A stretch of DNA of 600 nt from Escherichia coli. Lineage in GTDB: Bacteria > Pseudomonadota > Gammaproteobacteria > Enterobacterales > Enterobacteriaceae. A program made the translations under genes and the position numbers. Of the stretch, positions 1 to 600 are shown one piece after another. How positions within the stretch are numbered: position 1 is the stretch's first letter; each line of letters starts with the position of its first letter. A model generated the notes under the pieces. The model made no database searches. It had not been told where the DNA came from and saw only the letters and a list, made by a program, of their open reading frames with translations. The stretch lies in assembly GCF_003334405.1 (NCBI RefSeq), contig NZ_QOWM01000062.1; one strand, given 5' to 3'.

Positions 1-600
1 CCCTCATCCTCGCTGCGGATAAGTTTGCCGGTCAGGTCGTGGTGATAACGCTGTGTGCGGCCGTCAAAGCCGGTTTCCTGTATCAGCCGGTCAAGTACAT
101 CGTAACGGAAGGTGGTGTGGCTGCCGTTTTCACTGGTCAGGCGGATGACCCGTCCGGCAGCATCGTATTCCATACTGCGCGTCAGCCCGCCCTGCGTGGT
201 ACGGACGGCCTTTCCCCACGCATCGTACTGTGTCCCGTTTCTGCTGCCGTCCGGGGCAATGACGGCGGTCAGGTCACCGGCGATGTTGTATTCATACCGC
301 GTTTCATGGCCCTGCGTGTCTTTCACGGCAATTAACTGTCCACGGCTGTCGTATGCGCGGTACTGACTCAGCCCTTCCTCGCGGTGCACCGCCGTCATCT
401 GCCCGAAGCGGTCATGGTCATAACGGGTTACATAACCGGAACAGTCGGTGAAGCTCAGCAACTGACCGTAACGGCTCCACGTCATGGTTTTCCGGCTGCC
501 GGTGGCATCTTCCGTTGCGCAGGGTAAGTCACTGTGTGGATTATCATAACGGTAGCGGGTGATATCGCCGTCAGGGGCAGTTTCCTGAATCAGACGGCCC
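1..600 (-). CDS. rhs: Rhs-family YD-repeat protein, core region (internal fragment, partial at both ends; codon phase: first full codon at + strand 599-597, last full codon at 5-3)
   Basis: Seen in sequence: the reverse-complement frame beginning at + position 599 is open for all 199 codons, while the other two minus-strand frames have stops within the first ~30 nt (TGA at RC 28-30; TGA at RC 9-11). The translation contains eight YD-repeat units with the canonical Rhs pattern (e.g. GDITRYRYDNPHSDL, GYVTRYDHDRFGQMTAV, GLSQYRAYDSRGQLIAV, GHETRYEYNIAGDLTAV, TQYDAWGKAVRT, MEYDAAGRVIRLT, FRYDVLDRLIQET, RYHHDLTGKLIRS). Established knowledge: this motif and spacing define the Rhs/YD-repeat core (Pfam RHS_repeat type), and the sequence strongly resembles enterobacterial Rhs cores from memory. 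Which paralog (rhsA, B, C, etc.) cannot be resolved from an internal core fragment, so only the family symbol is given. No database search was run. Confidence 0.93.

What the first reader, a model, noticed from the sequence alone, without database searches (positions are those of the whole stretch)
1..600. Likely multi-copy paralogous region: assembly and mapping ambiguity
Rhs cores typically occur in several near-identical copies per genome (kilobase-scale repeats). A 600-bp internal core fragment is probably not unique, so short-read assemblies can collapse or break here, and variants called in this window may come from mixed paralogs. Recombination between copies is a known source of rearrangements.
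Basis: established knowledge. Interest (0 to 1): 0.3.

Follow-up and report, generated by a model that had tools for sequence, protein, structure and literature searches.

The report
Multi-copy E. coli Rhs core repeat
The window is an internal piece of the E. coli Rhs toxin-shell gene, which most strains carry in about three nearly identical 3.7 kb copies, so it does confuse assembly, read mapping and variant calling, as has been known for decades.

Summary
Confirmed, and ordinary. The minus strand is one open frame of 199 codons and is 100% identical to nt 1476-2075 of E. coli K-12 rhsB (RHS_core, E 2e-117). Of 5,426 complete E. coli genomes, 3,897 hold the window, with a median of 4 places per genome, or 3 when only close copies are counted (range 1-5). 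In K-12, rhsA differs at 1 base, rhsC at 14, and rhsD is 80% identical. The repeat is the whole 3.7 kb core. rhsA and rhsB differ at one base over 3,026 bp, and that base is window position 183. About 80% of 150-nt reads touching the window are exactly identical in another copy. In strain 4/2-1 the window is exact at all three loci, and its rhsC is a mosaic carrying an rhsA/B-type tract that includes the window, which indicates gene conversion. Public draft assemblies hold thousands of partial Rhs proteins on contigs under 1.3 kb, and three contigs I inspected end inside the window. Published work documents rhs contig breaks, a false polymorphism, clustered mutation calls put down to gene conversion, and the 139 kb rhsB-rhsA duplication. 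Caveats: 28% of complete genomes lack the window, roughly one carrier in eight has a single close copy, and read depth (collapse) could not be tested.

The parts
1..600 (-). Internal fragment of an Rhs core coding sequence (YD-repeat shell). It equals nt 1476-2075 (aa 493-691) of E. coli K-12 rhsB. The frame is open across the window and runs off both ends.
   Evidence: 100% identity to K-12 rhsB. RHS_core profile positions 501-699, E 2e-117.
543..599 (-). Partial YD (RHS) repeat, product residues 1-19.
   Evidence: Pfam PF05593, E 0.0011.
372..476 (-). YD (RHS) repeat, product residues 42-76.
   Evidence: Pfam PF05593, E 9.8e-08.
243..353 (-). YD (RHS) repeat, product residues 83-119.
   Evidence: Pfam PF05593, E 3.3e-10. 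TIGR01643 best stretch at residues 83-120.
54..227 (-). Two overlapping YD (RHS) repeat hits, product residues 125-160 and 145-182.
   Evidence: Pfam PF05593, E 5.5e-06 and 1.1e-10.
183..183 (.). The only base that distinguishes K-12 rhsB (C on the window + strand) from rhsA (T) across 3,026 bp of core (core nt 82-3107). It is synonymous (Leu631, CTG versus CTA).
93..447 (.). Span holding the 14 sites that distinguish K-12 rhsC from rhsB: window positions 93, 186, 203, 206, 210, 266, 283, 284, 398, 402, 405, 408, 423 and 447. Eight are synonymous and six lie in five nonsynonymous codons. These are the pseudo-variants expected if paralog reads are mixed.
108..363 (.). Span holding the contig ends seen in public draft assemblies: window position 363 (L010, a 1,042 bp contig), 122 (L011, a 499 bp contig) and 108 (L012, a 5,181 bp contig that starts in the unique selB-selA-yibF flank).

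Best explanation
The window is part of the conserved, G+C-rich 3.7 kb core of E. coli Rhs genes of the rhsA/B/C type.

At the protein level it encodes about five YD repeats in the middle of the Rhs protein. By homology to solved Rhs effectors, these form part of the wall of the shell that encloses the variable C-terminal toxin.

At the DNA level the core is a dispersed repeat found at fixed chromosomal sites: nikR-rhsB-yhhH, yibF-rhsA-yibA and ybfA-rhsC-ybfB. Most carrier strains have two or three copies that are 97-100% identical. Non-reciprocal exchange between loci (gene conversion) keeps the copies alike, so the same 600 bases sit at different loci in different strains and at all three loci in some strains.

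Three consequences follow. Reads shorter than the distance to the nearest paralog-specific site cannot be placed. Short-read assemblers end contigs inside the core. Same-strand copies serve as substrates for unequal crossover, which produces the classic rhsB-rhsA tandem duplication of about 140 kb.

Shown here: identity, copy number, repeat extent, mosaic structure and broken contigs. Inferred from homology or taken from the literature: the shell function, RecA dependence, and collapse in read depth.
For: Identity and family. The PxxxxDPxGL core-end motif is at aa 1238 in RhsA, RhsB and RhsC, and core GC is 0.62 against 0.37-0.40 for the tip.

Structural homologs: the product matches solved Rhs effectors, namely Tse5 (8cp6, E 4e-45), 7q97, 8h8a and 8qja-d, and matches teneurins weakly.

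Copy number.

Repeat extent and mappability: rhsA and rhsB are identical over core 82-3107 apart from one site. 80% of 150-nt reads, 55% of 500-nt reads and 37.5% of 1,000-nt reads that touch the window are exactly identical in another K-12 copy.

Same allele at three loci. All three loci of strain 4/2-1 carry the window exactly, and its rhsA and rhsB are identical over core 19-3647.

Gene conversion: rhsC of strain 4/2-1 is rhsC-type at core 30-724 (9 of 9 informative sites), rhsA/B-type at 954-2337 (63 of 65) and rhsC-type at 2400-3705 (38 of 39). Over the tract (core 954-2337) it differs from its own rhsA and rhsB at 2 sites but from K-12 rhsC at 65. Over the flanking segments (core 1-724 and 2400-3713) it differs from K-12 rhsC at 0 and 1 sites. 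If the 30 K-12 rhsA/rhsB differences were spread evenly, 24.4 would be expected in core 82-3107 against 1 observed (Poisson P about 6e-10).

Assembly breakage: and PMC3045373.

Rearrangement: rhsB and rhsA lie on the same strand with 138,756 bp between them. This matches the 139 kb amplification found in five evolved isolates (PMC4340650). rhs-mediated structural variants were also seen in mutation-accumulation lines (PMC5289635).
Against: The source genome of the window is unknown, so its own copy number cannot be stated. Some genomes carry a single close copy, for example LR-24 with a 100% match to window 240-600, and Rosetta2-DE3. 1,529 of 5,426 complete genomes lack the window entirely.

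Read depth, and therefore collapse, was not testable.

Jackson et al. [quoted passage not shown] They also found no published report of a chromosomal rearrangement mediated by rhs elements. The conversion evidence here rests on two strains.

The direction of the exchange, and whether it happened within one genome or after DNA transfer from another strain, is not established.
Confidence: 0.93

Rival explanations
1. In the particular genome the window was taken from, this core type is single-copy. The window would then be unique and cause no assembly or mapping problem there.
For: In the spread sample, 4 of 30 carrier genomes have only one close place. These include LR-24, whose single copy matches window 240-600 at 100%, and Rosetta2-DE3. 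The lowest number of places per genome is 1.
Against: The median is 3 close copies per carrier genome, with 11,190 places in 3,880 genomes. All 40 listed records that match the full 600 bases at 100% hold 3-6 places each.
Confidence: 0.1
2. The copies are alike only because they duplicated recently or are under strong purifying selection, not because sequence passes between loci.
For: The core encodes a structurally constrained shell. The single rhsA/rhsB difference and 8 of the 14 rhsC differences in the window are synonymous, which is what constraint on the protein would give.
Against: Selection on the protein does not remove synonymous differences, yet K-12 rhsA and rhsB differ at 1 of 3,026 bases while rhsC differs at 82-83 over the same stretch. 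The rhsC-site copy of strain 4/2-1 has sharp mosaic boundaries, and copies at the same site in two strains differ more (65 sites) than paralogs within one strain (2 sites). Neither fits simple divergence after duplication.
Confidence: 0.05
3. The repeat is a mobile element such as a transposon or IS, and its copies spread by transposition.
For: ISAs1-family (H-repeat) transposase genes lie downstream of the rhsB, rhsC and rhsE loci.
Against: The repeated unit starts at the rhs start codon and ends at about nt 3713, where the PxxxxDPxGL core-end motif begins. It encodes no transposase. The copies sit at the same chromosomal sites in unrelated strains. No mobilizable plasmid carries it, and the 'plasmid' hits look like mislabelled chromosomal fragments.
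Confidence: 0.02

Closest known systems
Rhs elements rhsA, rhsB and rhsC of E. coli K-12 (RhsABCF subfamily; 'Clade I' of Jackson et al. 2009)
   Same: The window is 100% identical to rhsB nt 1476-2075, 99.83% to rhsA and 97.67% to rhsC. The chromosomal sites, the core-end motif and the GC contrast between core and tip are the same.
   Different: Nothing differs at the sequence level. Because the same allele occurs at the rhsA, rhsB or rhsC site in different strains, the window cannot be assigned to one locus.
Structurally solved Rhs effectors of type VI secretion systems (Tse5 8cp6; Rhs family protein 7q97; 8h8a; 8qja-d; Tse15; Tre23 7pq5)
   Same: The window product aligns to the central YD-repeat region of these proteins, with E values from 4e-45 to 2e-23. 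The depositors name several of these entries 'Rhs core domain'.
   Different: These are homologs from other proteins, not close relatives of the window. No structure was predicted here, and secretion of the E. coli proteins was not examined.
Other dispersed repeats that break E. coli assemblies (rRNA operons, IS elements, tufA/tufB, gadA/gadB)
   Same: PMC3045373 lists rhs elements alongside these as causes of contig breaks. Like tufA/tufB, the rhs copies appear to be kept alike by exchange between paralogs; that comparison rests on established knowledge and was not tested here.
   Different: At 3.7 kb the repeat is longer than most IS elements. It is a protein-coding core at fixed chromosomal sites, and its copy number varies between strains from 0 to 5 close copies.
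Eukaryotic teneurins (YD-repeat proteins)
   Same: They share the YD-repeat motif. Matches to teneurin chains have E values from 7e-18 to 1.5e-4.
   Different: These are distant homologs only and have no bearing on the multi-copy DNA question.

Membership tests
Rhs core protein (NCBIfam NF041261 RHS_core; YD-repeat shell) | Tandem YD / RHS repeats | tested here: met
   Five PF05593 hits, four with E at or below 5.5e-06. TIGR01643 scores 86.8 bits against a cutoff of 15.8.
Rhs core protein (NCBIfam NF041261 RHS_core; YD-repeat shell) | Whole-protein score above the curated cutoff of 2000 bits | tested here: inconclusive
   The 199-aa fragment scores 393.6 bits over profile positions 501-699. 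No 600-nt fragment can reach a whole-protein cutoff. The window is identical to part of the gene that RefSeq annotates as rhsB.
Rhs core protein (NCBIfam NF041261 RHS_core; YD-repeat shell) | Core ends at a PxxxxDPxGL motif and is followed by a variable, low-GC C-terminal tip | tested here: met
   This lies outside the window but inside the identical host genes. The motif is at aa 1238 in K-12 RhsA, RhsB and RhsC. Core GC is 0.62 and tip GC is 0.37-0.40. Nucleotide identity between the copies ends at about nt 3713.
Rhs core protein (NCBIfam NF041261 RHS_core; YD-repeat shell) | Toxin activity of the tip, with a cognate immunity gene downstream | not testable with these tools
   Small downstream genes (yhhH, yibA, ybfB) are annotated. 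Their function was not examined.
rhs dispersed repeat ('rearrangement hot spot', Lin, Capage and Hill 1984) | Two or more kilobase-scale copies of near-identical sequence in one genome | tested here: met
   K-12: 3,713 bp at 99.19% (rhsA-rhsB) and 3,732 bp at 96.84% (rhsB-rhsC). Strain 4/2-1: rhsA and rhsB are identical over core 19-3647, and the window is exact at three loci. Not met in every strain.
rhs dispersed repeat ('rearrangement hot spot', Lin, Capage and Hill 1984) | Copies in direct orientation flanking the segment that duplicates | tested here: met
   rhsB and rhsA are both on the + strand of NC_000913.3, with 138,756 bp between them. This matches the 139 kb amplification in PMC4340650.
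rhs dispersed repeat ('rearrangement hot spot', Lin, Capage and Hill 1984) | RecA-dependent unequal crossover between the copies | not testable with these tools
   Literature only: Jackson et al. 2009 describe the original recA-dependent selection, and PMC4340650 reports the amplification.
Insertion sequence or transposon | Encodes a transposase, is bounded by terminal repeats, and sits at variable insertion sites | tested here: not met
   The repeat unit is the coding core only. It occupies the same sites in unrelated strains. The inverted repeats within the window are short and imperfect.

The most novel reading that the evidence does not exclude
Exchange between Rhs cores at different chromosomal loci (gene conversion, with tracts of about 1.4-1.7 kb) may be common in natural E. 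coli. It would be frequent enough to keep the shells of rhsA, rhsB and rhsC nearly identical and to move core alleles between sites. That would run against the inference of Jackson et al. 2009 that such recombination is 'infrequent (if any)'. It would also keep long stretches of homology in place for swapping toxin tips.
Probability: 0.4. Interest if true: 0.3.

Novelty: already known. Interest (0 to 1): 0.12.

Why it matters
The value is practical rather than conceptual. Variants called in this window from short reads should be masked or treated as paralog-ambiguous. Draft assemblies will usually end contigs here. Automatic gene names (rhsA, rhsB or rhsC) cannot be trusted without the flanking genes; for example, record L015 is named rhsB but sits at the rhsC site. 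Coverage steps between rhsB and rhsA point to the well-known tandem duplication of about 140 kb. The one item that goes slightly beyond textbook knowledge is the clean gene-conversion mosaic at rhsC in strain 4/2-1.

Tried and rejected
- Chi sites as a recombination signal: there is no exact GCTGGTGG in the window, and the single one-mismatch match is at chance level.
- Repeats within the window as a source of slippage or mis-mapping: only short, imperfect direct and inverted repeats were found, the best being 31 nt at 81%. The YD periodicity shows in the protein, not the DNA.
- RNA families: no Rfam match.
- Plasmid-borne copies: the 10 'plasmid' records are all non-mobilizable. They are either megabase-sized records or small records of 2.3-19 kb. 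The two I opened are linear: one is an E. coli chromosomal fragment filed under Klebsiella oxytoca, and the other is an unannotated piece of Rhs core filed under Klebsiella pneumoniae. I rejected them as evidence of mobility and count them as further signs of assembly trouble.
- rhsE as an extra copy: the K-12 rhsE pseudogene lacks this part of the core. The orphan core fragments downstream of rhsA and rhsC cover only the 3' part of the core, from about nt 2695 onward, and not the window.
- Plus-strand ORFs (39-335 at 98 aa, 112-366 at 84 aa): these lie antisense to a strongly supported gene and were not pursued.
- The first attempt to fetch a 50,001-base stretch failed on the size limit.

Full report
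**What the window is**

Only minus-strand frame 2 is open across all 600 bases. It has 0 stops, against 2-13 in the other five frames. The 199-residue product matches NCBIfam NF041261 'RHS element core protein' at profile positions 501-699 of 1261 (E 2e-117) and the YD-repeat model TIGR01643. It also gives five Pfam RHS_repeat hits.

The DNA is 100% identical to nt 1476-2075 (aa 493-691) of the K-12 MG1655 rhsB CDS. The window GC is 0.59 and the whole core is 0.62. The C-terminal tip after the PxxxxDPxGL motif at aa 1238 drops to 0.37-0.40.

The product aligns to the central YD-repeat region of solved Rhs effectors (Tse5 8cp6 at E 4e-45, then 7q97, 8h8a and 8qja-d) and weakly to teneurins. The inference from homology is that the window encodes part of the wall of the shell around the toxin.

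Within K-12 MG1655 the window matches four loci:

| Locus | Identity | Differences |
|---|---|---|
| rhsB | 100% | none |
| rhsA | 99.83% | 1 mismatch |
| rhsC | 97.67% | 14 mismatches |
| rhsD | 80.3% over 563 nt | 99 mismatches and 5 gap openings |
| rhsE | no match | this pseudogene lacks this part of the core |

Across 5,426 complete E. coli genomes, 3,897 hold the window, at 16,556 places. The median is 4 per genome and the maximum is 7.

K-12 rhsD shares a word of 28 nt or more with the window only at positions 169-200. I therefore repeated the search with window 240-600 so that only close copies would be counted. That gave 3,880 genomes and 11,190 places, with a median of 3 and a range of 1-5.

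The refuting outcome, a single unique hit, holds only for a minority. In the spread sample, 4 of 30 genomes had one close copy, including LR-24 and Rosetta2-DE3. A further 1,529 genomes have no copy at all.

**How far the repeat extends, and what that means for read placement**

The repeated unit is the whole core. rhsB and rhsA align over 3,713 bp at 99.19% without gaps, rhsB and rhsC over 3,732 bp at 96.84%, and rhsD is about 76% identical. Identity ends at about nt 3713, where the core-end motif begins.

K-12 rhsA and rhsB differ at 30 sites, and these cluster at the two ends. Between core nt 82 and 3107 (3,026 bp) there is a single difference, and it lies inside the window at position 183. 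The window has C and rhsA has T, a synonymous change in Leu631.

The 14 rhsC-specific sites are at window positions 93, 186, 203, 206, 210, 266, 283, 284, 398, 402, 405, 408, 423 and 447. Eight are synonymous, and six lie in five nonsynonymous codons.

The share of error-free reads touching the window that are exactly identical in another K-12 copy depends on read length:

| Read length | Exactly identical in another copy |
|---|---|
| 75 nt | 89% |
| 150 nt | 80% |
| 250 nt | 71% |
| 500 nt | 55% |
| 1,000 nt | 37.5% |

If paralog reads are pooled, the 15 sites above are the pseudo-variants to expect.

**The same allele at different loci, and gene conversion**

The identical 600 bases sit at nikR-rhsB-yhhH in K-12, at kdpF-ybfA-rhsC-ybfB in strain 4/2-1, and at yibF-rhsA-yibA in strains M217 and ECCHD184.

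I fetched the other two loci of strain 4/2-1. All three of its copies carry the window exactly. Its rhsA and rhsB are identical over core 19-3647. Its rhsC shares an exact tract of 1,546 bp (core 1158-2703) with both.

At the 113 sites where K-12 rhsB and rhsC differ, the rhsC-site copy of 4/2-1 is a mosaic:

| Core positions | Type | Informative sites |
|---|---|---|
| 30-724 | rhsC-type | 9 of 9 |
| 954-2337 | rhsA/B-type | 63 of 65 |
| 2400-3705 | rhsC-type | 38 of 39 |

Over the tract (core 954-2337) it differs from its own rhsA and rhsB at 2 sites and from K-12 rhsC at 65. Over the flanking segments (core 1-724 and 2400-3713) it differs from K-12 rhsC at 0 and 1 sites. The window, at core 1476-2075, lies wholly inside the exchanged tract.

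If the 30 K-12 rhsA/rhsB differences were spread evenly, 24.4 would be expected in core 82-3107, against 1 observed (Poisson P about 6e-10). rhsC differs at 82-83 sites over the same stretch, so that region is not simply invariant.

These patterns indicate non-reciprocal exchange between loci. The direction of the exchange is inferred rather than shown. Whether it happened within one genome or after DNA transfer from another strain is also not shown.

Jackson et al. [quoted passage not shown] Their network included the variable tips. The 4/2-1 mosaic is a modest counter-example.

**Direct evidence that assemblies break here**

A search of the large protein collection with the window product returned 32 hits. 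All are partial Rhs proteins of 117-349 aa, most on contigs of 354-1,049 bp.

Six of these clusters hold 8,238 sequences. Of the 90 members listed, nearly all are annotated 'partial' and sit on contigs about three times the protein length, so each contig consists of nothing but Rhs core.

Three contigs were inspected:
- L010 (1,042 bp) is all core and starts at window position 363.
- L011 (499 bp) is all core and ends at window position 122.
- L012 (5,181 bp) runs from the unique selB-selA-yibF flank into the core and ends at window position 108.

In the plasmid collection the window hits 10 non-mobilizable records. One is a linear 5.2 kb 'Klebsiella oxytoca plasmid' that is really the E. coli kdpA-kdpF-ybfA-rhs locus cut off at core nt 2771. 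It is named rhsB although it sits at the rhsC site. Another is a linear 2,340 bp 'Klebsiella pneumoniae plasmid' with no annotated features. All but its first 2 nt align to core nt 1241-3578 of K-12 rhsA at 96.2%.

Collapse, meaning elevated read depth on such contigs, could not be tested because no reads are available.

**What the literature says**

- PMC3045373 attributes 5 of 62 common contig breaks in 454 assemblies of K-12 derivatives to rhs elements (rhsA, B, C, D and E). [quoted passage not shown] It ascribes this to unequal crossover between the 3.7 kb homologous regions and cites Lin, Capage and Hill 1984. In NC_000913.3 both genes are on the + strand with 138,756 bp between them, which fits.
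- PMC5289635 reports that repeats other than IS elements, such as rhs elements, mediated 2% of structural variants in mutation-accumulation lines.
- As a caveat, Jackson et al. 2009 state that there is no published report of a chromosomal rearrangement mediated by rhs elements, and they regard the original phenotype as an artefact of selection.

**Rivals**

- A single copy in the unknown source genome remains possible, at about 0.1.
- Similarity due only to recent duplication or purifying selection does not fit the near-absence of synonymous differences between rhsA and rhsB, nor the mosaic.
- A transposable-element explanation fails. The unit is a coding core at conserved sites with no transposase, and the nearby ISAs1-family genes are separate features.

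**Verdict**

The finding is correct in both observation and interpretation, and it describes a long-known property of E. coli Rhs elements. Its value is as a practical warning for assembly, mapping, variant calling and gene naming. Novelty: already known. Interest: low.

Noticed in passing
L007 4882-9075 (strain 4/2-1 rhsC), compared with L013 29736-33971 (its rhsB), L014 9528-13661 (its rhsA) and L004 3584-7777 (K-12 rhsC): This is a clean gene-conversion mosaic. The rhsC-site core of strain 4/2-1 carries an rhsA/B-type tract (core 954-2337, with boundaries falling in 725-953 and 2338-2399) inside an otherwise rhsC-type gene. [quoted passage not shown]
   Followed up: yes
L012 4291-5181 (draft contig MOJN01000089.1); L017 4352-7502 (closed genome 2 HS-C, NZ_CP038180.1): Some rhsA-site genes carry internal deletions of the core. 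L012 joins CDS nt 304 to nt 1376 at a short CGGAT microhomology, a 1,077-nt in-frame deletion. L017 joins nt 397 to nt 1376, a 983-nt out-of-frame deletion, and is annotated as a frameshifted 'polymorphic toxin type 34' pseudogene. Both have the same right-hand boundary. Twelve closed genomes hold both halves of the L012 junction close together, always as two aligned pieces. It is not settled whether the L012 junction is real or an assembler chimera.
   Followed up: partly
L015 1-5191 (NZ_CP069926.1); L016 1-2340 (NZ_CP069827.1): Two records filed as Klebsiella oxytoca and Klebsiella pneumoniae 'plasmids' (FDAARGOS strains) are short linear fragments. L015 is the E. coli kdpA-kdpF-ybfA-rhs locus. 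L016 is unannotated Rhs core, 96.2% identical to K-12 rhsA. They are probably contaminant or unplaced repeat contigs rather than plasmids. L015 is annotated rhsB although it sits at the rhsC site.
   Followed up: partly
L003 8836-10525, L004 10303-12861 and L006 7673-8963 (K-12 rhsB, rhsC and rhsE loci): A second family of dispersed repeats lies downstream of the rhs genes. These are ISAs1-family 'H-repeat' transposase genes (yhhI, ybfD, ybfL, ydcC), 95-98% identical over about 1.3 kb. They add further assembly ambiguity at the same loci.
   Followed up: no
L004 8149-9168; L002 9198-9650: Orphan core fragments downstream of rhsC (ybfO) and rhsA (yibJ) repeat only the 3' part of the core, at 95-97% identity. 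The 3' end of the core therefore has more copies per genome than the window does.
   Followed up: no
window 39-335 (+) and 112-366 (+): ORFs of 98 and 84 codons lie antisense to the Rhs coding frame. They are most likely chance products of a G+C-rich gene and were not tested.
   Followed up: no
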